64,000 nucleotides of DNA, from the IMG/VR virus record IMGVR_UViG_3300024350_000006. One strand, given 5' to 3'. The DNA comes from a virus. This document shows, one piece after another, positions 41,800 through 60,917 of this stretch. A program made the position numbers and the translations under genes. The notes under the pieces are model-generated. The model saw only the letters and a program-made list of their open reading frames with translations, searched no databases and had not been told where the DNA came from. The first letter of the stretch is position 1. The number at the start of each line of letters is the position of its first letter.

Positions 41800-42063
41800 C
41801 AGTAAAGTGCAATGTGGAACGAGGCCACTGCTCACTATAAAAAGCTAAACGGGCGGACAGTATATATGAAATCACGGCGAGAACGTTGAGAGTAAGACTA
41901 CTGGTTGGGGTGTCGACCCCAACATAATGCGAGGTAACTCGCATTATTCTAAAGCACACTGGGCTAAGTACACGCCTATGCTCTGGACGCAGCCGGGCCG
42001 CCGTAAGGGGGCCTTTAAGGTGGACGGTTCGAATCCGTTAGTGTGTTTTAGAATAGTTCACCA
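41800..42063 (+). ncRNA. unrecognised structured RNA(s), including conserved-stem element A with a tRNA T-arm
   Basis: Hairpins GTTGGGG/CCCCAAC and ATAATGCGAG-GTAA-CTCGCATTAT; 17-bp stem 41945-41961 with 42039-42055. Confidence 0.55.
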
Positions 42064-42109
42064 AATATACTTTACAATTAGTGAGTTTGGCTATATACTA
42101 GAAAAATAC

Positions 42110-42204
42110 GGAGCGTTGGCCGAGTTGGTCGAAGGCACTTTCCTGCTAAGAAAGCATCTGGACAAAAATCTGGATCGTTGGTTCGAATCCAACACGCTCC
42201 GCCA
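42110..42204 (+). tRNA. tRNA-Ser(GCU)
   Basis: Long variable arm, G73, CCA. Confidence 0.92.
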
Positions 42205-42223
42205 AATTATTAAGTGATGATAT

Positions 42224-42844
42224 ATGGTAAATAAAAGTTTCTTATATAAGAATATATTTTCTCAAGAAGAAGTTAATCAAATTTTAAATTTTTTTAAAAA
42301 TCAGCCAATAGCTACAAAAAATTATTTAAATTTTGATAAAAACCTTGATTACCATATTGAAGATAGTTTTGCCCATACTTTTATTAAACCAAAGATACAA
42401 GCTCTAATAGGTGATCATCATTTTGAAAACGGTAGCTACAAAGAATGTATCCAACCCTATACTATACATATAGACAATTATGCTTGGTGGGACGATACCT
42501 ATACTTTTAAAGCAGAAGAAAACCATCAATGTTTTTTGTTGATACCTCTCGTTACTAGTCCTAAATTACGTACTGTAACATTTGATATATTTTACGAAAA
42601 ACGTTATGAAATGGGAGAACCAATGCCCAGTGAATGGTTAGGTGTTAAAAATACACTAGATCTAGAAGACTTTTCGCATTGTAAGCCTGAAACCCGAGAG
42701 CAAATACAGTATCTTCCAGTTGATAGAGATTTAGAATGGCAAGCAGGCGATGTTATTAGATGGCATAAAAACCAATTACATTGCAGCACTGATTTTGCCA
42801 AATACGATTTAGTTAAAAAATTTGTATTATTGGGTCTAGCATAA
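42224..42844 (+). CDS. 2OG-Fe(II) oxygenase-like
   Basis: IHID...W.AGD......LHCS. Confidence 0.55.
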   Translation: MVNKSFLYKNIFSQEEVNQILNFFKNQPIATKNYLNFDKNLDYHIEDSFAHTFIKPKIQALIGDHHFENGSYKECIQPYTIHIDNYAWWDDTYTFKAEENHQCFLLIPLVTSPKLRTVTFDIFYEKRYEMGEPMPSEWLGVKNTLDLEDFSHCKPETREQIQYLPVDRDLEWQAGDVIRWHKNQLHCSTDFAKYDLVKKFVLLGLA

Positions 42845-42853
42845 CAAAATAAA

Positions 42854-42943
42854 GGAAGTGTGGCAGAGTCCGGTTTAATGCACCTGTCTTGAAAACAGAC
42901 GATCAGAAATGGTCCGTGGGTTCGAATCCTACCACTTCCGCCA
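42854..42943 (+). tRNA. tRNA-Ser(UGA)
   Basis: Long variable arm, CCA. Confidence 0.93.
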
Positions 42944-42969
42944 GAATGTTCAAAAACTATCAATACCTA

Positions 42970-42998
42970 TTGACTTAAATTAGAACTTAAAGTAATAT
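42970..42998 (+). promoter_or_regulatory. sigma70-type promoter
   Basis: TTGACT-17-TAATAT. Confidence 0.6.
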
Positions 42999-43029
42999 GT
43001 GAACTTCATTAACTAAGTAGGAGTTCATA

Positions 43030-43287
43030 ATGAACATTAAACTTCGAGCAGCAGGTCGCACAGTGGGTATGATTGCCATAGCTACACTGGCTCCTCTGTT
43101 TGTAATGCTCTTGTTTAGGCTAGATAGTGATACACTTTTTGGTCTATTTACAATTTCCTTTTTCGCCTGGATGATCTGGGTAGTCTATTCAATTAATTTA
43201 ACGCAGTTGGAATCGGAAGAAAAAATTAAAGAGATTCAGGAACGTCGTAGTACAATGATTTCTGGTATGATTAAAGATCCGGAGTAG
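43030..43287 (+). CDS. small membrane protein
   Basis: AGGAG RBS, two hydrophobic segments; stop lies inside tRNA-Trp. Confidence 0.65.
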   Translation: MNIKLRAAGRTVGMIAIATLAPLFVMLLFRLDSDTLFGLFTISFFAWMIWVVYSINLTQLESEEKIKEIQERRSTMISGMIKDPE

Positions 43288-43351
43288 TATAGTGGCAGTG
43301 CGGCGGTCTCCAAAACCGTTAGTGGGGGTTCGATTCCCTCCTCCGGAGCCA
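43278..43351 (+). tRNA. tRNA-Trp(CCA)
   Basis: Cloverleaf, CCA. Confidence 0.9.
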
Positions 43352-43374
43352 ACAATTTTTCTAGGAGTATAATT

Positions 43375-43554
43375 ATGAAGTATCTAAGACTTGCAGTTCC
43401 TACTAGCATTTTTATTTTGTGTTTTCTTAATCTTGCCTTGGCTGTACATCAACACAATGATATGGCGATATGGGCTAATGTAACAGCCCTGTTTGGTTGG
43501 TTAATTGTCAGCGCAGACGAATACACCTATTTTAAGACTAGAGGGACATTGTGA
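43375..43554 (+). CDS. small 2-TM protein (59 aa)
   Basis: AGGAG RBS; shares GWLIV with the next ORF. Confidence 0.55.
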   Translation: MKYLRLAVPTSIFILCFLNLALAVHQHNDMAIWANVTALFGWLIVSADEYTYFKTRGTL

Positions 43555-43742
43555 AAGGCAGTATATTAAAAATAATTGTACCCGTGCTTTTAGTAATAAT
43601 GGGGGCGATTGGTATAGGCACGTATTATGTGCAGGGGAATATGCCAGCAGTGTCTGGATATTTTAGTGCAACACTGGGTTGGCTTATTGTAGCTGGTTTC
43701 AATACAGTCAATTATATTAAAGAGAAAGAATATCTTGTTTAA
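43551..43742 (+). CDS. small 2-TM protein
   Basis: GTGA-coupled to the upstream paralog. Confidence 0.55.
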   Translation: MKGSILKIIVPVLLVIMGAIGIGTYYVQGNMPAVSGYFSATLGWLIVAGFNTVNYIKEKEYLV

Positions 43743-43923
43743 ATTTCCTCTACGTGAATGGCCACATTATATTAAATGGAAATGGCAACAGTTGTTTAGA
43801 CGTAAAAATTTTATGTAATAAAGATAGTCCGGCCTGTAGTTGGGGTATAGCTAGAATTTACTAGTGAACGTATAGGACGCTATGCGCTACGGACATCTAG
43901 GAGGTAATAAGCCTCCAACCTAT

Positions 43924-44001
43924 GCATCGGTACCAGAGAGGCCTAATGGCGGGGTCTGCAAAACCTTCGATTCGCTGGTTCGAATCCAGCCCGATGCTCC
44001 A
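43924..44001 (+). tRNA. tRNA-Cys(GCA)
   Basis: U73, CCA. Confidence 0.92.
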
Positions 44002-44012
44002 GGATACTTTGA

Positions 44013-44085
44013 TGCGGGTTAGGGAAGAGGTCATCCCGTTAGGCTCATAACCTGAAGATCGTTGGTTCGAATCCAGCACCCGCTT
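44013..44085 (+). tRNA. tRNA-Met(CAU), initiator-like
   Basis: 1:72 mismatch; followed by CAA rather than CCA. Confidence 0.8.
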
Positions 44086-44117
44086 CAAAGTATCTTGCCA
44101 ATCTTATAAATATTTTT

Positions 44118-44354
44118 ATGTTATGGGATTGGCATATCTTCCAGTACCGAGCGGAAATACCCTGGCCACAGATGCCCGATGCGCAACTGGACTGGGTCTG
44201 GGGGTTATACTCCGTGGAAAACTGGTTGACCTCTAATGTGGGCCCTAGATATTCTAACTGGGCTTTTGAACCCACTGATCAAATTTACAATATAGGTGTC
44301 GCTTTCCGCTGGGAGCGAGATCAAGTTCTTTTCGTCCTTAAATGGACTCAGTAA
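44118..44354 (+). CDS. hypothetical protein
   Basis: TATAAATA directly upstream. Confidence 0.55.
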   Translation: MLWDWHIFQYRAEIPWPQMPDAQLDWVWGLYSVENWLTSNVGPRYSNWAFEPTDQIYNIGVAFRWERDQVLFVLKWTQ

Positions 44355-44364
44355 AATAATTTAT

Positions 44365-44457
44365 ACTTGGGTAGTGTAACGGTAGCACGACGAGATTTAT
44401 AACCTCGATACGCTAGATGGGCGGTTAGAGAGGGTTCGAATCCCTCCCCAAGTACCA
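44365..44457 (+). tRNA. tRNA(UAU), Ile-like, long variable arm
   Basis: ACTTGGG/CCCAAGT acceptor, loop TT-TAT-AA, about 22-nt variable region, CCA. Confidence 0.8.
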
Positions 44458-44464
44458 AAACAAT

Positions 44465-44540
44465 GCGGGCGTAGCTCAGTTGGTAGAGCGTTACCTTGCC
44501 AAGGTAAATGTCGTCAGTTCGAACCTGATCGCCCGCTCCA
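44465..44540 (+). tRNA. tRNA-Gly(GCC)
   Basis: Canonical. Confidence 0.95.
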
Positions 44541-44637
44541 GTTACTTTAAGGGGAAACAAAATGGGGCAATCGCAGTTTTTATTCTTGTAGTGTACTTAC
44601 TGGTCCTAATCGATAATAATGTAAAATAAATATTTGG

Positions 44638-44859
44638 ATGATTTATGTTGACTATGATAACACTGGACTAGAGATTTATATGGTCACTAATGATTACAAC
44701 GAATGTTTAATTAGGACTACCAATCGCGGCCTAGCCTATTTTGTAGATAAACACAGTCGCGGTCTTAAACAGGGGATGTTTCTTGTAGTTGGAGGAGACC
44801 CTGGATCAAGAAAAGCTAGGCGCCCAATATTTCATCATATAAGGCGTTATTCCAGGTAG
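44638..44859 (+). CDS. hypothetical protein
   Basis: ORF after TAAATA. Confidence 0.5.
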   Translation: MIYVDYDNTGLEIYMVTNDYNECLIRTTNRGLAYFVDKHSRGLKQGMFLVVGGDPGSRKARRPIFHHIRRYSR

Positions 44860-44922
44860 TTGTTCAAAAAACTTGTGTTAAATGTATTTTCAAGTATAAT
44901 GTAAGGCAGTTAGGAAAAAATT

Positions 44923-45192
44923 ATGGATATTACAGTAGCAACAAATTTTGTAACAAGTACTTTATTGATTAGCGTGGCCTGTATGATAGTAGCAGGTTGT
45001 GCAATTTTAATTAACAATATGATTCACAGATGGTGGAAGCCTTTAAGCTGGAGTATTGTGCCGCAGAGTATAAAGGATGTTATATCAGGAAACTTTGAAC
45101 AACCTGCCAAGGAAGTTAAAGAACCTGTAAAACAAGAACCACACATTGAACATCAGGAAAATACAGTAACACAAGTACGAGTTAAAGATTAA
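44923..45192 (+). CDS. small membrane protein
   Basis: AGGA RBS, N-terminal hydrophobic helix. Confidence 0.6.
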   Translation: MDITVATNFVTSTLLISVACMIVAGCAILINNMIHRWWKPLSWSIVPQSIKDVISGNFEQPAKEVKEPVKQEPHIEHQENTVTQVRVKD

Positions 45193-45198
45193 TTTCTA

Positions 45199-45274
45199 GC
45201 CGCTGTAGCTCAGTTGGTAGAGCGCCTGATTTGTAATCAGGATGTCGAGGGTTCGATTCCTTTCGGCGGCACCA
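45199..45274 (+). tRNA. tRNA-Thr(UGU)
   Basis: Canonical. Confidence 0.95.
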
Positions 45275-45278
45275 AGAA

Positions 45279-45476
45279 CCTCGTAGTCCCATCTACGTTA
45301 TTAACTGGGGGTAAATTGGCTTCACCATAATGCCAGGGCTCATACGATGATAGCCTCAAGGCCCGCTATATGGGCGACTTGAAAAATCGTAGGTGGGTAC
45401 TACGCCTTGCCAGAAGTAAATGTAGAGGACGGAGTAACAGCCCAGTCTGGGGCTGATGAGGATCAGTAGCCAGACA
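45279..45476 (+). ncRNA. unrecognised multi-stem RNA
   Basis: Stem 45282-45297 with 45388-45404 enclosing three hairpins; terminal GTCTGG...CCAGAC stem. Confidence 0.6.
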
Positions 45477-45488
45477 ACTTATTTTTTT

Positions 45489-45523
45489 AACCTAGGTACT
45501 ATTGTAGTATGCTAGGTTTTTTT
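45489..45523 (+). terminator. intrinsic terminator inside the tRNA island
   Basis: AACCTAG-GTACTA...TAGTATG-CTAGGTT plus T-run; TTGACA follows at 45529. Confidence 0.7.
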
Positions 45524-45648
45524 ATGCGTTGACAACAAGGAGATCCTGTTATGGATAGTGACAAGAAGGGTCTATTAAGATATGGTTGGACATATCGCGA
45601 TAGGCTTAAACGAGCAGCAATAATGTTCCAACTATATGGTATTACAAT

Positions 45649-45725
45649 GGGTGCGTAACTCAACTGGTTAGAGTAATCGGCTTTTAACCGATAAGTTGTG
45701 AGTTCGAGTCTCACCGCACCTACCA
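45649..45725 (+). tRNA. tRNA-Lys(UUU)
   Basis: Canonical. Confidence 0.95.
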
Positions 45726-45811
45726 TATAAAAACACATTCGAATATAATAATAATAGCGCCCGGGGCTATGGAGAGTATACGACTGTCCAGGAATGTGTT
45801 TTTATATGGTA
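45721..45811 (+). ncRNA. conserved-stem element B
   Basis: Perfect 20-bp stem TACCATATAAAAACACATTC / GAATGTGTTTTTATATGGTA. Confidence 0.6.
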
Positions 45812-46177
45812 CTAGTAAAAACTTATCTAGGGCCTAGCCCTATACACGGACTGGGAGTATTTGCAGATGAATTTGTCCCACAAGGAACTAAAATCTGGCA
45901 GCTAACACCAGGTCTAGATCTAGAGTGGTGTTATTTGGATTTTATTTCTCTACCACTCGCCGCACGAGAGTACATATTACATTGGGGATACAAAGATCCT
46001 GAATCTCAAATGTACAGATTAAGTTTTGACAATGACAGATTTATGAATTGGAGTCGAACTCCAAATGTCGTAGGTAATAGCAATGAAACATTTGCGGCTA
46101 GAGATATTGACAAAGGTGAAGAATTAACTTATCCATATTCCGAAGATTTATTAGGAGATCAAGATGCCAATGTATGA
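45806..46177 (+). CDS. SET-domain protein
   Basis: SPIHGLGVFA, RFMNWSRTPN, AARDIDKGEELTYPY. Confidence 0.85.
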   Translation: MVLVKTYLGPSPIHGLGVFADEFVPQGTKIWQLTPGLDLEWCYLDFISLPLAAREYILHWGYKDPESQMYRLSFDNDRFMNWSRTPNVVGNSNETFAARDIDKGEELTYPYSEDLLGDQDANV

Positions 46178-46313
46178 AACTACTGTGCGTACTCCTCAGG
46201 GAGAGACTAAAGATAGGGTGTATGCCAAGGATCTTCAAGAAGCTCGTCAACTATTTGAGCAGCGACACGGTCCTAGGAATGTACCTTATATTCCCAAAGT
46301 TATACCTAGTTAA
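46164..46313 (+). CDS. small hypothetical protein (49 aa)
   Basis: AGGAG RBS; MPMYETTVRTPQGETKDRVYAKDLQEARQLFEQRHGPRNVPYIPKVIPS. Confidence 0.6.
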   Translation: MPMYETTVRTPQGETKDRVYAKDLQEARQLFEQRHGPRNVPYIPKVIPS

Positions 46314-46317
46314 TAAA

Positions 46318-46392
46318 GGAAGCGTAGCATAATGGTAGTGCAACACCTTCATACGGTGCGCTGTGGGGGTTCGACTCCCTCCGCTTCTACCA
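46318..46392 (+). tRNA. tRNA-Met(CAU), elongator-like
   Basis: Loop TT-CAT-AC, CCA. Confidence 0.88.
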
Positions 46393-46411
46393 ATTTAACT
46401 AAAATAAATTT

Positions 46412-46729
46412 ATGAAAAAATGTCTTCATTGTGGTATTAAACATTCTCAAAAAATATCCACCTGCACAGTATGTAGAAACGGCCTACGCAGATATGGGAT
46501 GACTAGATTGGATATGTTAGCTCTGCACAAAAAACAAAAAGAAAAATGTTATTTGTGTGGGGTAAAATTAGAAATGTTTGTGGGTGCCCGCGGCGGTATG
46601 ATAGATCACTGCCACAAGACTGGGCAAGTAAGAAGTATCCTGTGCTGTAAATGCAACACCGCAGTGGGTGGAATAGAAACTCACAAAAATGTCAAAAAGT
46701 TATTAGAATATGTAAAACTCGGGGAGTAG
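46412..46729 (+). CDS. endonuclease VII-like (His-Me) domain protein
   Basis: CYLC...IDHCHKTGQVRSILCCKCN..VG. Confidence 0.8.
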   Translation: MKKCLHCGIKHSQKISTCTVCRNGLRRYGMTRLDMLALHKKQKEKCYLCGVKLEMFVGARGGMIDHCHKTGQVRSILCCKCNTAVGGIETHKNVKKLLEYVKLGE

Positions 46730-46797
46730 CTTAGTCTGGTTAAAGCGCCTGCTTTGGGAGCAGGAGATCGAGAGTTCGAATCCCTCTTCCCCGACCA
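46720..46797 (+). tRNA. tRNA-Pro(UGG)
   Basis: Canonical. Confidence 0.93.
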
Positions 46798-46798
46798 A

Positions 46799-47230
46799 TT
46801 ATTTAGGTGCCCAGGCGTTACAGCAAGCTCTGGGTTTCACCTTAGTATCTAGATTGAAAAAATCAGGAATTTTTTGGTTTAAAGTTTCAAAAAACGTACA
46901 AGTAGTTCCTTCTAGTGCCACACAGTTTTCACATCTAACCTTGGCAACTACGTAGCCTGCATCCTTGGGTGTAATAGAGTCCATTATAACCTGATTATCT
47001 GCAGGTACACCCTGTACGTAGAGACTACAACTGCCTTCAGCAACCACCTTGTAGTTTTTGCTAAACAGTGTGCATCTTTCACTGTCCGGCATAAAATGAG
47101 AACAGCTACTACACTGAGCAAAGTCCTTGATGTTATTCCTGGGTTCTAGGTAGATAAATGCGTCCCTACGAACTTTGTCAGAACTTTTTGTTGCTTCGGT
47201 AATTATGTTTATGTAGGATCTTAAATTCAT
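46799..47230 (-). CDS. tandem HiPIP-like Cys-motif protein
   Basis: CSSCSHF..CTLF..VVAEGSCSLY and CENC..CTFF..VKPRACCNAW; ATAAATA upstream on the minus strand. Confidence 0.6.
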   Translation of the reverse strand: MNLRSYINIITEATKSSDKVRRDAFIYLEPRNNIKDFAQCSSCSHFMPDSERCTLFSKNYKVVAEGSCSLYVQGVPADNQVIMDSITPKDAGYVVAKVRCENCVALEGTTCTFFETLNQKIPDFFNLDTKVKPRACCNAWAPK

Positions 47231-47247
47231 AGTAATATTTATTTTAT

Positions 47248-47322
47248 GCCTTCGTAGCTCAGTGGTAGAGCATCGTCTTGATAAGGCGAGGGTCGGTGGA
47301 TCGTTCCCACCCGGAGGTACCA
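47248..47322 (+). tRNA. tRNA-Ile(GAU)
   Basis: Cloverleaf, atypical T-loop ATCGTTC. Confidence 0.88.
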
Positions 47323-47329
47323 GAACAAT

Positions 47330-47406
47330 TGGGGATTCGCCAAGTTGGTCAAGGCATCGGATTTTGATTCCGACATTCATAGGTTCGAATCCTATATCCC
47401 CTACCA
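47330..47406 (+). tRNA. tRNA-Gln(UUG)
   Basis: Cloverleaf, CCA. Confidence 0.92.
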
Positions 47407-47413
47407 TAACAAT

Positions 47414-47489
47414 GGTGACTGTAGCATAACGGTAGTGCCACGGATTGTGATTCCGTACAGTGTGAGTTCGACTCTCATCAGTCACCCCA
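47414..47489 (+). tRNA. tRNA-His(GUG)
   Basis: G-1:C73, CCA. Confidence 0.93.
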
Positions 47490-47495
47490 ATTTAA

Positions 47496-47571
47496 GCCGT
47501 CCAAGCTAACCTAGTGGAAGCGTCTGTCTGAAGAACAGAATGGCCTGGAGCGTAACCAGGGGTCGGCACCA
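47496..47571 (+). tRNA. tRNA-Phe(GAA), atypical
   Basis: A at position 8, T-loop AGCGTAA, CCA. Confidence 0.8.
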
Positions 47572-47575
47572 ATTA

Positions 47576-47650
47576 CGGTCCGTAGCTCAGCGGAAGAGTT
47601 CTGGTCTTCGAAACCAGCTGTCGGGAGTTCGAATCTCTCCGGACCGGCCA
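47576..47650 (+). tRNA. tRNA-Arg(UCG)
   Basis: Cloverleaf, CCA. Confidence 0.9.
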
Positions 47651-47822
47651 GCAAAATAAAATTAGTCTTGCTAGGTGATAAATACAAGTGCAACGCCAAG
47701 TTAATTGACGTCGGCAATTCAAACGACGCTTGACATATTGATGTCTTTACTGTATTGTTAATACAGAACGCCAGCCGTGAGCAGGATGCACTGCGAGCAC
47801 TACACCAACACAAGGACAAATA

Positions 47823-48866
47823 ATGAAAACTAGACCATTGAAAAATTATGGTGCTAGTGTTGGACTTGAAGCTTATGATATTGATTGGAACTCTCAAGAA
47901 GAAATTCTTGAACTAGGTCGTCTAGCAGCCAGTCAGTGTGTAGTAGTTGTCAATGAACACATTAGCACCGAGCAACTTTATAAAACTATGATTAACTGGG
48001 GCGATGTAAGTCATCCCATTATAACTGACTATGTAAGTCGTAAACTATTAACAGGCAGTCACTGGCGCGAGCTAACACTTAATCTGCGCTATATAACAAG
48101 TGAAGTTCCTGAACTTAAATCCGTAGCACTAGTAAGTTACCTTAAAAAAGAAAAAGATAGACCACGCGGTTTATTTTCCAATGGAGAACTTGACTGGCAC
48201 AGTGATCAATGCGCTATAGACGACGGACAACGAGTTATTGGTCTTCAAAGTATAAGTGATACAGCAAACAGCCAGACACAATTTTTATGCACACACGATG
48301 CCTACGAGTCATTAAGCTCGGATATGCGTAGTATGATCAAGGAATTGGTCTGTAAGCACCGTTGGTATGAGGGACTTATGGCACCTGGCTTAAACAGGGC
48401 TCAGTCAATGATGCTTAGATATAATATGGTACCCATTGACGGACTTGAAACAAACTTATATTCAGAAACTGCCAGCGGCTTAACTGGAATAAAAATTCCT
48501 AGTCATACCTTTGATGGATTTGTGGGTATGAGCCGTGAAGAAAGTATTAAATTACTAGATGAAATTAAATCAGTAGTCTACAACGATCGTTACGTGCATA
48601 CACAAGACTGGCAGGATGGGCAGATTGTGTTTATGGACCAAGAGATTACTCTACACAAACGACCAACTAATGTAAAAGACGGTGATCGTCGTACAATGGC
48701 ACGTAGTATTACCTATGTTAACTATTTGTACCCTGACAGCGCATACGCCATAAGAAGATCAACTTACAAATATCAAGGTTCAGTTTATACTGAAGAAGAT
48801 TTTGTAAAATTAGTTGATCAAGACCGTCGCACACAATATGAACAAGAATTGGAGTTTGCAGAATGA
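47823..48866 (+). CDS. TauD/TfdA-family dioxygenase (paralog 1)
   Basis: LDWHSD, TQF..T, W..G.IV.MD...TLH.R. Confidence 0.85.
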   Translation: MKTRPLKNYGASVGLEAYDIDWNSQEEILELGRLAASQCVVVVNEHISTEQLYKTMINWGDVSHPIITDYVSRKLLTGSHWRELTLNLRYITSEVPELKSVALVSYLKKEKDRPRGLFSNGELDWHSDQCAIDDGQRVIGLQSISDTANSQTQFLCTHDAYESLSSDMRSMIKELVCKHRWYEGLMAPGLNRAQSMMLRYNMVPIDGLETNLYSETASGLTGIKIPSHTFDGFVGMSREESIKLLDEIKSVVYNDRYVHTQDWQDGQIVFMDQEITLHKRPTNVKDGDRRTMARSITYVNYLYPDSAYAIRRSTYKYQGSVYTEEDFVKLVDQDRRTQYEQELEFAE

Positions 48867-50615: not shown

Positions 50616-50636
50616 TGTTATAAACAAGAGGAAATT

Positions 50637-50882
50637 ATGAAAGAACAAATTAAGCAAGAAGTCAAACAAATCTTGGCCAAGCAGTTTGGTAAAACACTAG
50701 ATGAAATTTCCGATGATCTGGATCTAGAAACTCTAGGCGCAGACAGTCTAGACACAGTGGAAATTGTAATGGAACTAGAACATCATTTTCAAATCGTTAT
50801 TGAAGAAGATGAATACGAAGGCAAGTCTTCACTGACCAGCATTGTAGACCTTGTCTGCAAAAAGAAAAATCTTGAGTCCTAA
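50637..50882 (+). CDS. acyl carrier protein
   Basis: LGADSLDTVEIVMELE phosphopantetheine site. Confidence 0.9.
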   Translation: MKEQIKQEVKQILAKQFGKTLDEISDDLDLETLGADSLDTVEIVMELEHHFQIVIEEDEYEGKSSLTSIVDLVCKKKNLES

Positions 50883-52392: not shown

Positions 52393-52406
52393 CAAAATTA
52401 CAACAG

Positions 52407-52435
52407 TTGACATTAATGCACCAAATCGTTAAAAT
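52407..52435 (+). promoter_or_regulatory. early sigma70 promoter
   Basis: TTGACA-17-TAAAAT followed by AGCGGTATAGTAA. Confidence 0.8.
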
Positions 52436-52465
52436 AGCGGTATAGTAAACGATAAGGAGCAAGCA

Positions 52466-52708
52466 ATGTTAACAACTAAACAAGCACGTGAAATTGTTAA
52501 TAAACAAATTAAATATTTTCAGAGCTGGACGGATAAAAGTCGCGCTAGTGATGGTGAAGCGATGCGTAATGTTTGTTTTCACGTGGGCTACCTTACTAAA
52601 GAAAGTGATATTGCTAAAATTAAAAATAGTCTAGAGCTTGCTGGGCATACTGGCAAGACTAGGTTGATGGGTGGTTATCTGCGTTTAACCAACTTGGAAA
52701 TAAATTAA
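52466..52708 (+). CDS. small early protein
   Basis: AAGGAG RBS after the promoter. Confidence 0.65.
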   Translation: MLTTKQAREIVNKQIKYFQSWTDKSRASDGEAMRNVCFHVGYLTKESDIAKIKNSLELAGHTGKTRLMGGYLRLTNLEIN

Positions 52709-52720
52709 TTAAAAAAGTAG

Positions 52721-52749
52721 TTGACAGTAATTGCACTAGATGATATAAT
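52721..52749 (+). promoter_or_regulatory. consensus sigma70 promoter
   Basis: TTGACA-17-TATAAT. Confidence 0.9.
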
Positions 52750-52755
52750 ATAAGA

Positions 52756-52805
52756 CTGCACTAAACGATGCAGCCCAAGTAGTAGAAAAAAGTTCTATAA
52801 CAATT
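52756..52805 (+). promoter_or_regulatory. boxB/boxA-like antitermination signal
   Basis: CTGCA/TGCAG hairpin, then GTTCTATAACAATT. Confidence 0.5.
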
Positions 52806-52816
52806 AGTAAAACAAT

Positions 52817-52900
52817 GCCCTGGTGGTGGAATGGTAGACACGCTAGTCTTAGGAACTAGTATCGCAAGGTGTGGGAGTTCGAGTCTCCCCTGGGGCACCA
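52817..52900 (+). tRNA. tRNA-Leu(UAG)
   Basis: Long variable arm, CCA. Confidence 0.95.
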
Positions 52901-53125
52901 TATTAAAATATATTAGGTTACCTAGCCAGTAGGGGGCCTAGAAGAGGATAACCACTTGACGGAGTGGCTCTTGCTAGGTCTCACGAAACCTTGAGATAAT
53001 ATCAGGAGGACGCTGGAACAACTAGGAACGTAATGTGTGACACAGACAAATCCGTGGACGGCACGGTTGGGCAGAGTTCAAAGGCTGCGATCTCTGTGAA
53101 GCATCCTAATATATTTTAATATGGT
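52897..53125 (+). ncRNA. conserved-stem element C with 187-nt structured cargo
   Basis: Perfect 21-bp stem 52897-52917 with 53105-53125. Confidence 0.6.
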
Positions 53126-53127
53126 AC

Positions 53128-53291
53128 AAGACTGTTCATATAACACTGCAATGGGATATGACAGGCTGCGTAAGTGTATTGGCTGGCACAGAAGCCCCAG
53201 TAGCGGAGAGTTGAAGCACTTGCAGGTGTGGATGAGTTCCGTGACCGGGCGTCTAGGTTGGGTTCGAATCCCATCGCATTTGTTTGCACCA
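53128..53291 (+). ncRNA. tRNA-like RNA of unknown class
   Basis: TGGG-TTCGAAT-CCCA T-arm and ACCA end, but no cloverleaf. Confidence 0.45.
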
Positions 53292-53426
53292 TATTGAAGC
53301 ACATTTCTGTCATTGCCGTGCCAGCTTCACGGTGAGTACAAGAGTACGGAAGTAGCTACCCGACAGGTTGTACAAAGTTACAAGTGGGTTAATGACAGCC
53401 CCTTGGGAGTGTGTTTCAATATGGTG
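53287..53426 (+). ncRNA. conserved-stem element D
   Basis: CACCATATTGAAGCACATTT / GAGTGTGTTTCAATATGGTG. Confidence 0.6.
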
Positions 53427-53427
53427 G

Positions 53428-53456
53428 TTGACATTAAAAGAATTTAGCTGTAATAT
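53428..53456 (+). promoter_or_regulatory. sigma70 promoter of the giant RNA
   Basis: TTGACA-17-TAATAT. Confidence 0.75.
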
Positions 53457-53462
53457 AGATAC

Positions 53463-54347
53463 TTAGGGAGTTTAATCTCTTGTTAGGCGGTTCGCCGTCT
53501 AACTAAGGATAAGTGGCGTGAGTCACCCAAAGCAGAATCCTCCTACAGGACTGCGCCAGAGATGGTCCAGTTAAACAAGCCTGCTCACTACCGCGAGGTA
53601 GCGATCACTGATAAGACCGGTGGTTGTAACAATGAAGCTGGTGTAGTGGAAAGAACTTGTATCGACTAGCCCGCAAGGGAACTAGGGTGCAAGGAAAGTA
53701 ACAGGTGGTGCTGACTTCACTACAAAACCAACCAGTTAGTTGGTATGAGAAAGGGTAGTGCATTTGTCCAAGGTTTCGCAGCCAAGGGCTTGTGTGCAGT
53801 ATGAATGGTACTTGGGGCTGCTGTGAGGCGTCACAAGAATCGTGAAATACTACTGAGTAGCCGGCAGGCGAAAGGTACGTGGTGTGTTGTATCGTGTATT
53901 CCAAAAGAGTATGCGGCAACTGGAGCAGCACATCATAGTAGGTTGATATAGCTCATTGGTAGAGCAACAGTCCTTTTAAACTGTAGGCAGTTGGTTCAAA
54001 TCCAACTATCATTAAACAAAAACGCAAAGACTGCTCCGGTTGTATGTGAAAAGCATCTAACACTTAGGGCGTAAGCTAACTAAGTTCAGTCTAACCCGCA
54101 AGGTGAAACTGATTTGTACTAGAAGATTCGTAGCTCGCAAGGCTTAATGGACCGCAAGTTCAACGGGTAATAAGGTACAGAGTAGCATACAATGACAAGA
54201 CTACTGCCTGTCTTTAAACGGCGATGCTGCAAGCAGACTGGATCACATAGCGATATGGATCTTGTGGATGTCGTGGAGAAGATTGGCTCGCAAGGCTGAC
54301 TATAATACCCGAGGTGCTTGTAGTTAAGATGTAATCTCAGTCTTAAC
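53463..54347 (+). ncRNA. GOLLD-like giant structured RNA
   Basis: About 885 nt with no credible ORF; many GNRA (GCAA, GCGA, GAAA) hairpins; AGGTGGTGCTG, GAGTAG and terminal GTAATCTCAG segments recalled from GOLLD; tRNA-array context. Confidence 0.7.
53942..54014 (+). tRNA. tRNA-like (Lys-like) domain embedded in the giant RNA
   Basis: D arm GCTC/GAGC, ACAGT/ACTGT stem with 8-nt loop CCTTTTAA, T arm; no CCA. Confidence 0.7.
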
Positions 54348-54438
54348 ACTTTCTAAAACACATTGTAGTGGATTTCACAAGTATGAGTCGCATTCTAAAG
54401 AGTGCCCTTGAGATTGGATATAGTGTGTTTCAGAAAGT
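54348..54438 (+). ncRNA. conserved-stem element E
   Basis: ACTTTCTAAAACACATTGTA / TATAGTGTGTTTCAGAAAGT. Confidence 0.55.
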
Positions 54439-54440
54439 CA

Positions 54441-54631
54441 AGAATCCGGTTACTACTTTCCTAAAAGTAGCGTATGGCACACGACAAGGCCCGGTGGCTA
54501 GGGCACCGTTAGCGTTACTAGAGACAGACGACCTAGCAGCGTGGACACTTCGTCGGCCGTCTGCCAAACAGTGTTCGGACAGGGTAACAACTCCAGGATA
54601 GGGGCGACCGTGGAAAAGCGTGGCCTAACCA
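54441..54631 (+). ncRNA. unrecognised structured RNA related to 45279..45476
   Basis: Shared GGAC.G.GTAACA..C.CAG...GGGG motif. Confidence 0.45.
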
Positions 54632-54632
54632 A

Positions 54633-54791
54633 TATATTAGCAAGTGTTATCGATGAAACATTGGGTATCGTAAACTGATCATTTACTATGCGGGCCTAAC
54701 TGGCGTGGAACAGGTCCTGACATAACCAGCCATACGCTCTGGAACGGAAGCACCGGACTCCTAAATTGGCACGATAGCACTTACTAATATA
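54633..54791 (+). ncRNA. long-stem element F (divergent arms)
   Basis: 20-bp stem 54633-54652 with 54772-54791, one mismatch. Confidence 0.5.
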
Positions 54792-54803
54792 ATACTAATA
54801 TAA

Positions 54804-54878
54804 GGTTCCATAGTATATCGGTTAGTACACCGCCCTGTCACGGCAGAAGGAGGGGTTCGACTCCCCTTGGGACCGCCA
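54804..54878 (+). tRNA. tRNA-Asp(GUC)
   Basis: G73, CCA. Confidence 0.92.
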
Positions 54879-54953
54879 AGTTTCTCTACACTACATCTAA
54901 GCCTTGATAGGTAGGGGAAGGCAGGTGGCTTAGGCTTGCCGAGAGTTTTTATT

Positions 54954-55030
54954 GCACCGTTAGACATCTGGTTGAGGTCACCACCCTTTCAAGGTGGCTA
55001 GAGCGGGTTCGAATCCCCTACGGTGTACCA
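54954..55030 (+). tRNA. tRNA-Glu(UUC)
   Basis: Cloverleaf, CCA. Confidence 0.9.
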
Positions 55031-55141
55031 AGATGCACAGTGTCGCTTTACGCTGTGGCAGGACGGCCTCTGTATCCTAGGACTCAAGCCTCTCAGACTG
55101 CAACTAGAGTTCTCGCAAAAGAACATAGCAAGATTTAGATT

Positions 55142-55228
55142 GGGTGCTTAGTCCCGTAATGGTATCGGGGGCAGACTGTAAATCTGTTGTCTTTGGCCTT
55201 CTCTGTTCGAATCGGAGAGCACCCACCA
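55142..55228 (+). tRNA. tRNA-Tyr(GUA)
   Basis: Long variable region, CCA. Confidence 0.88.
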
Positions 55229-55244
55229 AGTTAAGAAAGTAGAT

Positions 55245-55448
55245 ATGTATAAAGTATATTGGACCTACGGTGATGAAACCTACGGTCAAGAATTTGAAGA
55301 TATGACAGAAGCACTTAATTATTGTCAGCATCTTAGAAGTACTGGTAGAAAGTATGTTACTATGTGCAGCGAGCTTGCTGATATGGTTGGCGAGTTTGGT
55401 GTAACGGAAACTGGACCTGGTTATGATTGGAAAAAACGTAGAGATTAA
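55245..55448 (+). CDS. hypothetical protein
   Basis: ORF fills the inter-tRNA gap. Confidence 0.6.
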   Translation: MYKVYWTYGDETYGQEFEDMTEALNYCQHLRSTGRKYVTMCSELADMVGEFGVTETGPGYDWKKRRD

Positions 55449-55449
55449 T

Positions 55450-55527
55450 CCGTCCTTAGCTCAGTAGGATTAGAGCATCAGGCTACGAACTTGAAGGTCG
55501 GGGGTTCGACTCCCTCAGGACGGTCCA
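55450..55527 (+). tRNA. tRNA-Arg(ACG)
   Basis: Cloverleaf, CCA. Confidence 0.93.
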
Positions 55528-55538
55528 AAAATAATTAA

Positions 55539-55784
55539 ATGGATTTAATAAAAAACATTTCAGAGAAAGCCAAGGAGTCAGTGCCCAAGGGAGTACTGGC
55601 TCCTGACCTTTGGATAGAACATTATAATAAAATATTTGCTAGGTTAGTTGTACAGGAATGTCTAGACATTTTAAATGAACACATTCGGGAAGACAGTAAA
55701 GAAGAGAGGGATATATACTTAAAAAGTTTTAGACAGGATCTAAAACAACATTTTGGTCTAGGGAGAAATCAAGACAATGAATAG
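55539..55784 (+). CDS. hypothetical protein
   Basis: FARLVVQEC, similar to the next ORF. Confidence 0.55.
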   Translation: MDLIKNISEKAKESVPKGVLAPDLWIEHYNKIFARLVVQECLDILNEHIREDSKEERDIYLKSFRQDLKQHFGLGRNQDNE

Positions 55785-56073
55785 CAATCTATTGGACGAC
55801 CTTATGTATCAAGCAGGTATGACTGCTCAGGGTTGCTGGGACAATCTTGACGATTATGATAAAGAGGCCATACTGAGATTGGCTAAATTAATAGTGCAAG
55901 AGTGTGTAAAATCTTGCGGTAGCCAGGCAGACAAGGCTAACATCTTAAAAACTTTTGGCCTGCCTGTGGAATCCAATGTTAAATATATTAGTCCTGAAGC
56001 ATCAGGTAGTGTGGACTCTCAATATAGAAGAAGATATAACCTAGCACCCACTCAGGGAGTAAATAATGACTAA
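55777..56073 (+). CDS. hypothetical protein
   Basis: LAKLIVQEC. Confidence 0.55.
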   Translation: MNSNLLDDLMYQAGMTAQGCWDNLDDYDKEAILRLAKLIVQECVKSCGSQADKANILKTFGLPVESNVKYISPEASGSVDSQYRRRYNLAPTQGVNND

Positions 56074-56214
56074 GAAAAAAGTCAAAACTGATACTGAACT
56101 AGATAAAAAATGTAATGCAGCAATAAAAAGAGTTAATAAACATATAGATACACTTGTTGCACGACATTTAAAAGAGATGGGACTTGTCGTAACTGATACT
56201 AAAAAAATAATTTA

Positions 56215-57267
56215 ATGAAACCCAGTCATTTTTATTTCGACGATAAAATATTAGAACGCGAACAATTACTTTTTAAACAGGCAAGATATCTAGGACACGA
56301 ACTATCTGTCAATAACTATCGCACACTTCCACAGGACAATAGTGGTAGAGTGTTAGTTAAAAACAACAACGGTATAGAGTGTATAGAAAATGTCTGCCGC
56401 CACCGCCAAGCAGTAATGCTAACAGGCAGTGGAGAAACATCAAACATTATTTGTCCATTACACGGCTGGACCTACAATCTAGAAGGCGAACTTGTTGGCG
56501 CCCCACATTTTGATCCTTGCCCTAATAGACCACTAAGAAAATTTAGCACACAGAGCTGGAACGGTCTATTTTTTGAATCAGGTAAGTTTAACATTGTTCG
56601 AGATCTTATTGGTATGAGAGCTGGTAAGTATTTTGATTTTAACAATTACCAGTACCATAGCACTCAGGAACATCATTGTGATTACAACTGGAAGACCTTT
56701 ATAGAAGTCTACCTAGACGATTATCACGTGGTACCTTTCCATCCTGGCCTTGGTAATTTTGTAGATTGTAATAAACTAGACTGGCAGTTTGGTGACTGGT
56801 ATAGTGTGCAGACTGTGGGAGTTCATAATGAATTGCGCACTCCCGGTACACCAGTTTATCGTCGCTGGCACGATGTATTAATGAATTATCGTAAGGGACA
56901 AATACCTGAATTTGGGGCAATATGGCTGACCATCTATCCTAATGTAATGGTGGAATGGTATCCTGAAGTTTTAGTAATTTCTAGTCTGTGGCCGGAAACA
57001 CCACAGCGCACAAAAAATATTGTTGAATTTTATTATCCCGAGGATATAGCTTTATTTGAACCTGAGTTTGTTCAAGCTCATCAGGCTGCCTATATGGAAA
57101 CCTGTTATGAAGATGATGAAATAGCAAGGCGTATGGATCAGGGTAGATGTCATCTTAATAACAATAATTATAGTGATTACGGACCTGTACACAATCCTAT
57201 GGAACTAGGTCTAGAATATTTTTACAAGTATTACAACAATTATGTTTTTGGTTTATTTGGCGAATAA
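56215..57267 (+). CDS. Rieske non-haem iron oxygenase alpha subunit
   Basis: NVCRHR...CPLHGWTY; NWKTFIEVYLDDYHVVPFH; EDD. Confidence 0.92.
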   Translation: MKPSHFYFDDKILEREQLLFKQARYLGHELSVNNYRTLPQDNSGRVLVKNNNGIECIENVCRHRQAVMLTGSGETSNIICPLHGWTYNLEGELVGAPHFDPCPNRPLRKFSTQSWNGLFFESGKFNIVRDLIGMRAGKYFDFNNYQYHSTQEHHCDYNWKTFIEVYLDDYHVVPFHPGLGNFVDCNKLDWQFGDWYSVQTVGVHNELRTPGTPVYRRWHDVLMNYRKGQIPEFGAIWLTIYPNVMVEWYPEVLVISSLWPETPQRTKNIVEFYYPEDIALFEPEFVQAHQAAYMETCYEDDEIARRMDQGRCHLNNNNYSDYGPVHNPMELGLEYFYKYYNNYVFGLFGE

Positions 57268-57307
57268 CAATTCGACTTAATAAACTTTTAGTAGTAAAAT
57301 GTTATAT

Positions 57308-57383
57308 GGGAAGTTAGCTCAGTTGGTAGAGCGTCTGCTTTACACGCAGAATGTCGGCGGTTCGATCCCGTCACTTCCTACCA
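57308..57383 (+). tRNA. tRNA-Val(UAC)
   Basis: Canonical. Confidence 0.95.
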
Positions 57384-57390
57384 ATTTTAT

Positions 57391-57466
57391 TCCAGCGTAG
57401 CTCAGTGGTAGTAGCAGTTGACTGTTAATCAATTGGTCGTTGGTTCGATCCCAACCGCTGGAGCCA
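57391..57466 (+). tRNA. tRNA-Asn(GUU)
   Basis: Canonical. Confidence 0.93.
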
Positions 57467-57485
57467 ATTTTATAAGGGGAAAGTA

Positions 57486-57695
57486 ATGCTAATAACGGAA
57501 GCTCAGGGTTATAAACTCTATTGTGAAGTCACGCCAGTGGATTTTCCCCCGGCACTTTTTAGAGTGCATATTTTTACTAAGTTCGACTGGGCCAAGGACC
57601 CCGAGGCCATACAGACCAAGATGGAACTGTTTTTTGATGAGGCTGAACTGGAAGCTTTTAGAACCGCTTTGAGCGTACCACGCCTAGATCAGTAA
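57486..57695 (+). CDS. hypothetical protein
   Basis: AAGGGG RBS. Confidence 0.55.
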   Translation: MLITEAQGYKLYCEVTPVDFPPALFRVHIFTKFDWAKDPEAIQTKMELFFDEAELEAFRTALSVPRLDQ

Positions 57696-57714
57696 TTCCC
57701 TGTTAAATACAGGT

Positions 57715-57963
57715 ATGAAAGACCTGTTAAAGAATTTACCTCAAATATTAAGTGCTCTTCCCGAAATAGTTAAGTATTTAAAATATATACCTATTTTAAT
57801 GTTACTAGCGGGCATAGGCTATGGGGTATTGTATTATATGGACAATCACAAAGATCCCTACAAATGTGTCAATAACCACGTTTTTGAACAGTTAAGAATA
57901 GACAGTGATGTCTATGTGTTCAAGGGCGGTACTTGCATTGATGCCAAGGACCTAGAACAATGA
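57715..57963 (+). CDS. small membrane protein
   Basis: One TM segment; TAAATA upstream. Confidence 0.55.
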   Translation: MKDLLKNLPQILSALPEIVKYLKYIPILMLLAGIGYGVLYYMDNHKDPYKCVNNHVFEQLRIDSDVYVFKGGTCIDAKDLEQ

Positions 57964-58244
57964 TAGTTTACCGTGTGCCTAGTTCTTTACTAACTGACTA
58001 TGCTCAAGTTGGCCAACATCAACAAGTGTTAGCCAAGTATAAAAGACAAGATGCTGAATTACAAAATTACAACGAACTTGTCAAGCTTATTTCTATGCAG
58101 GAAGGTCTTAGGTTATTAAGAAATTACAATTATATGAAGGACACTGAATTTTTAACTCAGTATGCCTATGCCGAAAGCATCAAGGAACAACGACTAGTAC
58201 AAAGAGCTGCTAGTGTTGGTCTCTATATAGACAGATACATATAA
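57960..58244 (+). CDS. hypothetical protein
   Basis: ATGA-coupled ORF. Confidence 0.5.
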   Translation: MIVYRVPSSLLTDYAQVGQHQQVLAKYKRQDAELQNYNELVKLISMQEGLRLLRNYNYMKDTEFLTQYAYAESIKEQRLVQRAASVGLYIDRYI

Positions 58245-58249
58245 TATTA

Positions 58250-58417
58250 TCGCGTGTGAGGAAGTCGCCTTTACTGACGGCGTACAGTAGGATAAATTGT
58301 CAGTAGTCTACAGACCCCGTCTTAGCAGTCTCGGACGATAAACGAGACTGCATATTGAAGCACATTGCGATGCCGTTCCGCGGCGGCGACCACAACGAGA
58401 GTAGTGTGTTTCAATAT
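58250..58417 (+). ncRNA. hairpin cluster plus conserved-stem element G (58352-58417)
   Basis: ATATTGAAGCACATTGC / GTAGTGTGTTTCAATAT; GCAGTCTCG/CGAGACTGC hairpin. Confidence 0.55.
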
Positions 58418-60832: not shown

Positions 60833-60898
60833 CTCAGTTGGTAGAGCACTTGCCTTCCAAGCAAGACGTCGAGAGTTCGAACCTCTTCGCCCGCTCCA
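60823..60898 (+). tRNA. tRNA-Gly(UCC)
   Basis: Canonical. Confidence 0.95.
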
Positions 60899-60917
60899 AG
60901 TTTCAAGGAGATAGTAA

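What the first reader, a model, noticed from the sequence alone, without database searches (positions are those of the whole stretch)
41945..58417. Family of conserved 17-21 bp closing stems bracketing unrelated RNA cargoes
Seen: seven elements, A 41945-42055, B 45721-45811, C 52897-53125, D 53287-53426, E 54348-54438, F 54633-54791 and G 58352-58417. Five share an AA(A/G)CACA(T/C)T ... A(G/A)TGTGTTT core flanked by (CC)ATAT/ATAT(GG) or TTCT/AGAA; C is an AT-rich variant and F is divergent. Inserts are 32-187 nt, mutually unrelated and mostly structured. G:U pairs recur at the same position in A, D and G, so pairing is best on the + strand RNA rather than as a DNA palindrome. In B, C and D the left arm starts inside the ACCA end of the preceding tRNA or tRNA-like RNA. 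Inference: a standard processing handle (two helical turns suits RNase III) that releases a cassette-like set of small RNAs and may couple this to tRNA 3' maturation.
Basis: partly seen in the sequence, partly recalled or inferred. Interest (0 to 1): 0.8.

Follow-up and report, generated by a model that had tools for sequence, protein, structure and literature searches.

The report
Conserved RNA handle carrying varied small RNAs
An uncultured giant phage and its relatives place one nearly fixed 20-base-pair RNA helix around more than a hundred different small folded RNAs inside their tRNA gene islands. This family appears undescribed and most likely marks where the long tRNA transcript is cut and small RNAs are released.

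Summary
Five of the seven elements (A, B, D, E, G) belong to one sequence family. Its consensus is 5'-ACCAUAUUGAA(G/A)CACA(U/C)U ... A(G/A)UGUG(U/C)UUCAAUAUGGU-3'. C is a transition variant of the same helix. F is not shown to be a member.

Scans of IMG/VR found about 230 more copies, nearly all in phage tRNA islands. Of 189 copies that pair on one strand only, 188 pair on the tRNA-sense strand, so the selected structure is RNA, not a DNA palindrome. The helix is about 20 bp long (interquartile range 19-21), shows covariation and keeps two wobble pairs. It closes at least 111 unrelated cargo families. About a third of copies start inside the CCA of the upstream tRNA, and many end at the 5' end of the next tRNA. 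One copy has almost no cargo.

Nothing matches in Rfam, in cultured phages or in the searchable literature. There are no target-site duplications. Four complete related genomes encode no RNase III and no Ro-type protein.

Best reading (unproven, 0.4): a processing and carrier handle, probably cut by a host double-strand RNase, that separates tRNAs and releases stem-capped small RNAs. This scan has noted analogous conserved-stem, variable-cargo hairpin families in other phages, but not this handle.

The parts
41943..42057 (+). Element A. It carries the TTCT/AGAA variant of the handle. The 75-nt cargo ends in a canonical T-arm (GGUUCGAAUCC) that abuts the 3' arm.
   Evidence: R1 31.5 bits, E 2e-5. 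Fold -48.7 kcal/mol, z -4.6.
45649..45725 (+). tRNA-Lys(UUU). Its ACCA end forms the first pairs of element B.
   Evidence: ARAGORN and Rfam.
45721..45811 (+). Element B. The handle variant is CCAUAUAAAAACACAUU and the cargo is 51 nt. The same cargo follows tRNA-Lys in contig L148.
   Evidence: R1 47.3 bits. Cargo cluster of 2.
52817..52900 (+). tRNA-Leu(UAG). Its ACCA end forms the first pairs of element C.
52897..53125 (+). Element C. It is an AU-only transition variant of the handle (CCAUAUUAAAAUAUAUUAGG) closing a conserved 187-nt structured RNA.
   Evidence: Three IMG/VR relatives keep the stem, with a U.G wobble, and show 13 compensatory pairs in the cargo. R1 does not hit it.
53126..53290 (+). 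Unclassified RNA unit between C and D. It has a T-loop-like motif and ends in GCACCA, which runs into the left arm of D.
   Evidence: Read from the sequence. There is no ARAGORN or Rfam call, and the fold z-score is 0.
53287..53426 (+). Element D. It has the canonical handle and a 94-nt cargo with an 8-nt palindromic stretch (GUAGCUAC; the L177 homologue has UAGCUA in a predicted hairpin loop). The same cargo follows tRNA-Glu in L177.
   Evidence: R1 48.9 bits..
53879..54343 (+). Conserved 3' domain of GOLLD RNA, with an embedded tRNA-like unit at 53942-54014. A promoter-like site lies at 53428-53456, directly after D.
   Evidence: Rfam RF02032, 214 bits. Promoter scan.
54348..54438 (+). Element E. 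It carries the TTCT/AGAA handle variant and starts 4 nt after the GOLLD 3' end. The same GOLLD-handle junction occurs in contig L202.
   Evidence: R1 43.3 bits. L202 map.
54633..54791 (+). Element F. It is a 20-bp closing stem with one mismatch. Membership in the family is not shown, and the right arm overlaps a TTGGCA-16-TATAAT promoter for tRNA-Asp.
   Evidence: No R1 hit. No paired relatives. Promoter scan.
58352..58417 (+). Element G. It has the canonical handle without the CCA/UGG pairs. The 32-nt cargo is conserved in seven other contigs.
   Evidence: R1 51.6 bits. Cargo cluster of 8 with covariation.

Best explanation
The elements are RNA genes or spacers that share a sequence-conserved helix of about 20 bp, the 'handle'. 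The handle brackets many unrelated small structured RNAs within the polycistronic transcripts of phage tRNA islands.

The 5' arm usually begins with the ACCA of the upstream tRNA or another folded unit. The 3' arm often ends at the first base of the next tRNA.

I propose that the handle is an endonucleolytic processing module. A host double-strand-specific RNase, most likely RNase III, cuts the two-turn helix. The AU-rich lower half then melts. This leaves a short 3' tail on the upstream tRNA for exonuclease trimming back to CCA, and a short single-stranded leader on the next tRNA for RNase P. The GC-containing upper half stays closed and caps the released cargo RNA.

Shown here: the family exists, it is selected at the RNA level, it has a fixed length and fixed wobble pairs, it is coupled to tRNAs, and its cargoes are diverse.

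Inferred: the cleavage itself, the enzyme, and any function of the cargoes.
For: 1. Strand. Of 189 copies that pair on one strand only, 188 lie on the tRNA-sense strand. Sense-strand stems have 387 G.U pairs against 24 A.C pairs.
2. Covariation. On alignment A1, 98% of cells are paired, 9 of 17 pairs show double changes, and 0 of 500 shuffles reach the observed values. Detection anchored on the outer motif alone shows that the core also covaries through transitions: GCACAU, GUACAU, GCGCAU, GUGUAU, AUAUAU.
3. Measured length. The median stem is 20 bp, with interquartile range 19-21. RNase III accommodates about 22 bp (PMC6212723).
4. Sequence rule. The helix holds two W-S-S-W steps, ACCA:UGGU and A(G/A)CA. 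These match the in vivo E. coli RNase III preference for G-C pairs between the two cuts (PMC6212723).
5. Position. 66 of 184 unique copies start 2-4 nt inside the upstream tRNA end, and 33 end within about 1 nt of the start of the next tRNA.
6. Cargo independence. A nearly cargo-free copy sits exactly between tRNA-Lys and tRNA-His in L019.
7. Other RNAs. A handle directly follows the GOLLD 3' end both in the window and in L202.
8. Enzyme source. Four complete related genomes of 343-400 kb carry handles but no RNase III gene, so any such enzyme would come from the host.
Against: - No RNA ends were mapped.
- RNase III needs little sequence specificity, so it does not by itself explain a median 86% identity of the arms between contigs. 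Same-anticodon tRNAs are 66-70% identical, although retrieval by pattern inflates the figure for the arms.
- Above the central candidate site there are only 6-11 bp before the cargo, which is short for a symmetric RNase III dimer.
- The W-S-S-W rule comes from E. coli, and the host here is unknown.
- The ACCA conservation is partly explained simply by tRNA ends.
Confidence: 0.4

Rival explanations
1. The handle is a clamp and insulator, not a cleavage site. RNase P cuts at the next tRNA, and the tRNA 3'-end machinery (RNase E or RNase Z type) cuts at CCA. Together they excise the whole hairpin. The full helix then protects the cargo from exonucleases and keeps neighbouring tRNAs from misfolding.
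For: Handle boundaries coincide with tRNA ends within 1-4 nt in about a third of copies. Tandem arrays alternate handles with ACCA-ending units in L202. By way of precedent, from my own knowledge, the tRNA-linked pre-miRNA hairpins of murine gammaherpesvirus 68 are released by tRNase Z.
Against: More than half of the copies, including A, E and G, have no tRNA at either boundary. A protective clamp would be expected to be GC-rich and free to vary in sequence, whereas this helix is AU-rich and nearly fixed. CCA is buried in the duplex, which should hinder single-strand-specific RNases.
Confidence: 0.22
2. The handle is the binding site of a specific protein. It would be the constant part of a family of RNA-protein particles in the manner of Y RNAs with Ro60/Rsr, and the cargoes would be interchangeable effector modules.
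For: Sequence conservation is stronger than pairing alone requires, and two wobble pairs sit at fixed positions (G.U at pair 12 in 18 of 40 sequences, U.G at pair 17 in 34 of 40). About 5% of cargoes, including A, are tRNA-like with a T-arm, as in YrlA. A lead from this scan (e1-5650820) describes a different phage handle family that travels with one protein.
Against: No TROVE/Ro gene is present in four complete handle-bearing genomes. Rfam YrlA does not hit any element even at E<=5. No protein recurs next to handles apart from an RNase H-like DUF458 protein and a metallophosphoesterase. The DUF458 protein is absent from 2 of 4 complete genomes.
Confidence: 0.2
3. This is mainly a DNA-level feature. 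The conserved inverted arms would be recombination or transposition sites that shuffle small cassettes between phages, in the manner of MITEs, integron attC sites or the PeSL cassettes of T4-type phages.
For: The same cargo family sits next to different tRNAs in different contigs, for example the G-type cargo after tRNA-Ile, tRNA-Arg or tRNA-Asn, or with no tRNA directly upstream. Every left arm can pair or recombine with every right arm.
Against: The strand asymmetry is 188 to 1 and wobble pairs sit at fixed positions. No target-site duplications were found (0 of 180 at 4 nt or longer). No transposase or integrase recurs nearby. Shuffling may be a side effect of the repeats rather than their function.
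Confidence: 0.08

Closest known systems
RNase III processing stalks of bacterial rRNA operons and the RNase III hairpins of phage T7 early transcripts
   Same: Flanking sequences pair into a helix of about two turns that brackets an RNA to be released from a polycistronic transcript that also contains tRNAs. In T7 the sites are phage-encoded and resemble one another.
   Different: Here one nearly identical helix is reused around more than 100 unrelated small cargoes and fuses directly to the tRNA CCA. Cleavage is not shown.
Bacterial and phage Y RNAs (YrlA, Rfam RF02553) with Ro60/Rsr
   Same: A conserved closing stem formed by the 5' and 3' ends carries a variable module that is sometimes tRNA-like, and these RNAs are found near tRNAs in phages.
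   Different: There is no RF02553 match, no Ro/TROVE gene in four complete related genomes, and the stem sequence differs.
Phage T4 stable RNAs C and D (species 1 and 2) in the T4 tRNA cluster
   Same: Small non-tRNA RNAs of unknown function are co-transcribed and co-processed with phage tRNAs.
   Different: T4 has two RNAs without a shared handle.
tRNA-linked pre-miRNA hairpins of murine gammaherpesvirus 68, and yeast polycistronic snoRNAs released by Rnt1p
   Same: Small RNAs are punctuated by tRNA-like units or by stems cut by an RNase III-class enzyme.
   Different: Those are eukaryotic systems with different enzymes. This is an analogy only, and it rests on my own knowledge.
PeSL cassettes of T4-type phages and MITEs
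   Same: Repeated conserved stem-forming sequences flank variable cassettes.
   Different: Here the selection is on the RNA strand, there are no duplications, and the cargoes are non-coding and 19-246 nt long.

Membership tests
RNase III substrate hairpins | Uninterrupted double-stranded helix of about 20-22 bp | tested here: met
   The median is 20 bp with interquartile range 19-21, and 98% of cells are paired.
RNase III substrate hairpins | Paired W-S-S-W step with a G-C pair between the two staggered cuts (E. coli in vivo rule, PMC6212723) | tested here: inconclusive
   ACCA:UGGU and A(G/A)CA both fit the rule. However, the host is unknown and the scoring matrix from the paper's supplement is not held.
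RNase III substrate hairpins | Staggered cuts leaving 2-nt 3' overhangs, dependent on RNase III | not testable with these tools
Y RNA / YrlA with Ro60 (Rsr) | Match to Rfam RF02553 | tested here: not met
   The only weak YrlA hit (22.5 bits, E 0.7) lies on tRNA genes at 44430-44489, not on any element.
Y RNA / YrlA with Ro60 (Rsr) | Ro60/TROVE protein encoded with the RNA | tested here: not met
   PF05731 is absent from 4 complete handle-bearing genomes. The window itself is only 64 kb of a larger genome.
MITE or other mobile DNA palindrome | Target-site duplications and no strand preference | tested here: not met
   0 of 180 copies have a flanking repeat of 4 nt or longer. The strand bias is 188 to 1.
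Any described RNA family (Rfam 15) for the cargoes | Cargo reaches a family's gathering score | tested here: not met
   The window at E<=5 and 15 further loci give only tRNA, GOLLD and one tmRNA, none of them inside a handle.
This handle family (model R1) | Significant R1 match on the tRNA-sense strand | tested here: met
   Met for A, B, D, E and G at 31-52 bits. Not met for C or F. C fits the generalised transition consensus.

The most novel reading that the evidence does not exclude
The handle is a universal expression and processing cassette. Through it a clade of giant freshwater-type phages deploys a large, fast-diversifying set of small structured RNAs, with more than 100 cargo families so far, many of them pseudoknot-like or with self-complementary loops. 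These RNAs would be made alongside tRNAs and GOLLD and would act as decoys, sponges or RNA-protein modules against host functions.
Probability: 0.25. Interest if true: 0.85.

Novelty: new variant of a known kind. Interest (0 to 1): 0.68.

Why it matters
Phage tRNA islands are usually annotated as tRNAs plus empty spacers. This finding shows that, in one clade of giant phages, many spacers encode a modular small-RNA system. It has one conserved helix and more than 100 different conserved cargoes, and it sits directly against tRNA ends and the 3' end of GOLLD.

It offers three things:
- a concrete, testable handle for studying how long phage tRNA and GOLLD precursors are cut;
- a searchable signature for finding new phage non-coding RNAs;
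- a natural scaffold for presenting small RNAs.

If the cargoes have functions, this would be a new layer of interaction between phage and host.

Tried and rejected
- Rfam at gathering threshold and at E<=5 on the window, and at gathering threshold on 15 related loci. No family was found for any cargo or for the handle.
- Cultured phages (INPHARED). There is no megablast match to the window and no match to element G. Two separate 17-nt arms would fall below the BLAST threshold, so absence is not proven.
- Bacterial and archaeal genome scan with the paired pattern. The 120 rows returned were ordinary palindromes without the AUAUUGAA extension, as expected by chance.
- Phage-encoded RNase III (PF14622) and Ro/TROVE (PF05731). 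Both are absent from 4 complete related genomes.
- DUF458 RNase H-like protein (PF04308) as a dedicated nuclease. It is the most frequent neighbour (30 of 115 loci) but is absent from 2 of 4 complete genomes.
- Other window proteins as recurrent neighbours of handles. None was found.
- Enrichment of palindromic hairpin loops across cargoes. The signal is weak: 9 observed against 4 expected, and 4 of the 9 are T-loops.
- Literature search by sequence strings and by topic. Nothing was found on this helix.
- Search for sequencing runs to map RNA ends.
- Relatives of F. All 16 exact arm matches are chance matches without a paired partner.
Full report
**Context**

The window is part of an uncultured giant myovirus.
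- It encodes tail sheath, tail tube and large terminase.
- The nearest cultured relatives by terminase are Pseudomonas phage PA5oct, Sinorhizobium phage Phosso and Agrobacterium phage Atu_ph07, at 51-56% identity.
- There is no nucleotide match among cultured phages.
- From 39.6 kb to the window's end lies a tRNA island with 29 tRNA genes, all on the + strand.
- The island also holds a GOLLD RNA (Rfam RF02032, 214 bits, 53879-54343).
- No whole genome is held for the window.

**The observation**

All seven inverted repeats are real; exact spans and stem lengths are listed under the observation check.
- They are the longest and cleanest long-range stems in the window.
- Each whole element folds far better than shuffled sequence, with z-scores from -3.0 to -7.9.
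- The shared core occurs 7 times on the + strand of the window, and five of those are the left arms of A, B, D, E and G.

**A widespread family**

- An exact 14-mer from the left arm of D and G was scanned against IMG/VR. It returned many contigs where the 14-mer is matched 30-130 nt downstream by the complementary arm. These are typically preceded by a tRNA-like NCCA.
- Over 227 loci, a simple detector found 230 sites. It required the core RCACAY/RUGUGY plus at least 14 pairs.
  - 210 of the 230 sites lie within 3 kb of tRNA genes.
  - Of the 189 sites that qualify on only one strand, 188 are on the tRNA-sense strand.
  - This settles the question of RNA against DNA. The non-Watson-Crick positions are G.U in the sense transcript (387 G.U against 24 A.C).
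- No target-site duplications flank the arms.

**The handle**

- The position frequencies give 5'-ACCAUAUUGAA(G/A)CACA(U/C)U ... A(G/A)UGUG(U/C)UUCAAUAUGGU-3'.
- On a 40-sequence alignment the 17 pairs are 98% paired. Nine pairs show changes on both sides, for example UUGAA/UUCAA to UUUCA/UGAAA, UUCAA/UUGAA and AUAAAA/UUUUAU. No shuffle or slid register comes close.
- Two wobbles recur. Pair 12 is G.U in 18, A-U in 16 and G-C in 6 sequences. Pair 17 is U.G in 34 of 40.
- The core was fixed by my detector. I therefore repeated detection anchored only on CCAUA...UAUGG.
  - One third of 138 unique hairpins have transition variants of the core with compensating changes: GUACAU, GCGCAU, GCAUAU, GUGUAU, GUGCUA.
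  - Window element C (AUAUAU) falls in this series.
- Total stem length is tightly distributed, with median 20 bp and interquartile range 19-21.
- Model R1 finds A, B, D, E and G in the window and nothing else. It does not find C or F.
- C has three IMG/VR relatives with the same AU-rich stem, a sense-strand U.G wobble and 13 compensatory pairs in its roughly 190-nt cargo.
- F has no relatives, and its right arm overlaps a TTGGCA-16-TATAAT promoter for tRNA-Asp.

**Cargoes**

- 184 unique elements fall into 111 cargo clusters. Cargo length is 19-246 nt with a median of 45, although the second scan biased lengths toward 22-52 nt.
- Cargo families are conserved between contigs and show covariation. 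In the G type, GCCG...CGGC changes to GCUG...CAGC, and a loop palindrome changes from CCGCGG to CCUAGG.
- About 5% of cargoes, including A, end in a canonical T-arm.
- None reaches any Rfam family.
- The same cargo can sit next to different tRNAs in different phages.
- One copy in L019 has almost no cargo and lies exactly between tRNA-Lys and tRNA-His. The helix therefore has a role of its own.

**Position**

- 66 of 184 unique copies begin 2-4 nt inside the 3' end of an upstream tRNA, so that CCA, and often the discriminator base, pairs with UGG(U).
- 33 copies end within about 1 nt of the next tRNA's first base.
- ACCA and UGGU are also conserved in 71 copies with no detected upstream tRNA.
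- In L202, eleven handles lie in 8.7 kb. Some alternate with repeated 88-nt folded units that end in ACCA.
- In both the window and L202, a handle of the UUCUAAAACACAUU subtype starts 4-6 nt after the GOLLD 3' end.
- Promoter-like sites at 52721, 53428 and 54766 suggest the transcription units.
  - The first unit would carry tRNA-Leu, C, the unclassified unit and D.
  - The second would carry GOLLD, E, an unknown RNA and F.
  - The third would begin with tRNA-Asp.

**Partners**

- Four complete related genomes (343-400 kb) carry 1-3 handles each, clustered in one region.
- They encode neither RNase III nor a Ro/TROVE protein.
- The commonest proteins near handles are an RNase H-like DUF458 protein (window 63385-63858) and a metallophosphoesterase (window 62137-62700).
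- The DUF458 protein is missing from two of the four complete genomes. No other window protein recurs near handles.
- Any enzyme or binding protein is therefore of host origin or unrecognised.

**Mechanism**

- The features argue for a processing module recognised as double-stranded RNA. Those features are a measured two-turn helix without bulges, an AU-rich lower half, a central G/C step and a placement that buries both the upstream CCA and the next tRNA's leader.
- The in vivo rules for E. coli RNase III describe about 22 bp of contact. They also describe a paired W-S-S-W step with G-C pairs between the two cuts, resembling the ACC|U site of Mini-III (PMC6212723).
- The handle offers two such steps, ACCA:UGGU at its base and A(G/A)CA at its centre.
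- A central cut would leave a 9-nt tail after CCA and a 10-nt leader on the next tRNA. These two pieces would be held together only by AU-rich pairs. It would also release the cargo capped by the conserved upper stem.
- All of this is inference, because no ends were mapped.
- The degree of sequence conservation keeps a protein-binding reading alive. The arms are 86% identical in the median between contigs, against 66-70% for same-anticodon tRNAs and about 60% for shared proteins. Retrieval bias inflates the figure for the arms.
- Exact coincidence with tRNA ends keeps a pure RNase P and 3'-end excision model alive.

**Novelty**

- No paper in the searchable library contains the arm sequences or describes such a handle. 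A review of GOLLD context mentions only proximity to tRNA islands.
- This scan's earlier notes describe analogous conserved-stem, variable-cargo hairpin families in other phages: e1-252178, e1-166541, e1-5650820 and e1-5411011.
- I class the finding as a new variant of a known kind, namely phage processing or carrier hairpins. It is remarkable for its cargo diversity and for its fusion to tRNA ends.

Noticed in passing
window 44000-44097: tRNA-Met (44013-44086) lacks an encoded CCA. Its leader and trailer pair for about 13 bp beyond the acceptor stem, giving a 20-bp stem with one mismatch. This is a second kind of long closing stem, here bracketing a tRNA itself.
   Followed up: partly
window 60887-60902 with 61201-61216: The 3' end of tRNA-Gly(UCC), including CCA, has a 16-nt inverted copy about 300 nt downstream. 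The copies are 88% complementary.
   Followed up: no
window 63385-63858 and 62137-62700: An RNase H-like DUF458 protein (PF04308) and a calcineurin-like metallophosphoesterase lie inside the tRNA island. Homologues recur in 30 and 26 of 115 related tRNA-island loci. They are candidates for RNA-end processing or repair enzymes.
   Followed up: partly
L202 (reverse strand), about 2160-4520 and 6297-6429: Eleven handle elements lie in 8.7 kb. Some alternate with two near-identical 88-nt folded units that end in ACCA. A UUCU-type handle sits 6 nt after the GOLLD 3' end, as in the window.
   Followed up: partly
L019 6638-6676: A nearly cargo-free handle, with a loop of about 8 nt, lies exactly between tRNA-Lys and tRNA-His.
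   Followed up: yes
window 58369-58400 (G cargo) and 53340-53360 (D cargo): The cargo hairpins have self-complementary loops. In G-type cargoes the loop covaries from CCGCGG to CCUAGG in relatives. In D it is GUAGCUAC. These loops could allow kissing-loop dimers.
   Followed up: partly
L120 13913-14302: A related phage contig encodes a tmRNA of the betaproteobacterial type (Rfam RF01850, 137 bits). This may be a clue to the host.
   Followed up: no
window 53114-53130 with 53283-53299: The right arm of C can pair with the left arm of D, enclosing the unit between them. In general any right arm can pair with the next left arm, so arrays have alternative folds that would bracket tRNAs instead of cargoes.
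   Followed up: partly
window 54439-54632 and 45279-45476: These are unclassified non-coding stretches of about 200 nt, one between E and F and one after tRNA-Thr. They have no Rfam match. The fold of the first (54439-54632) is no better than shuffled sequence (z 0.3); the second was not folded.
   Followed up: partly
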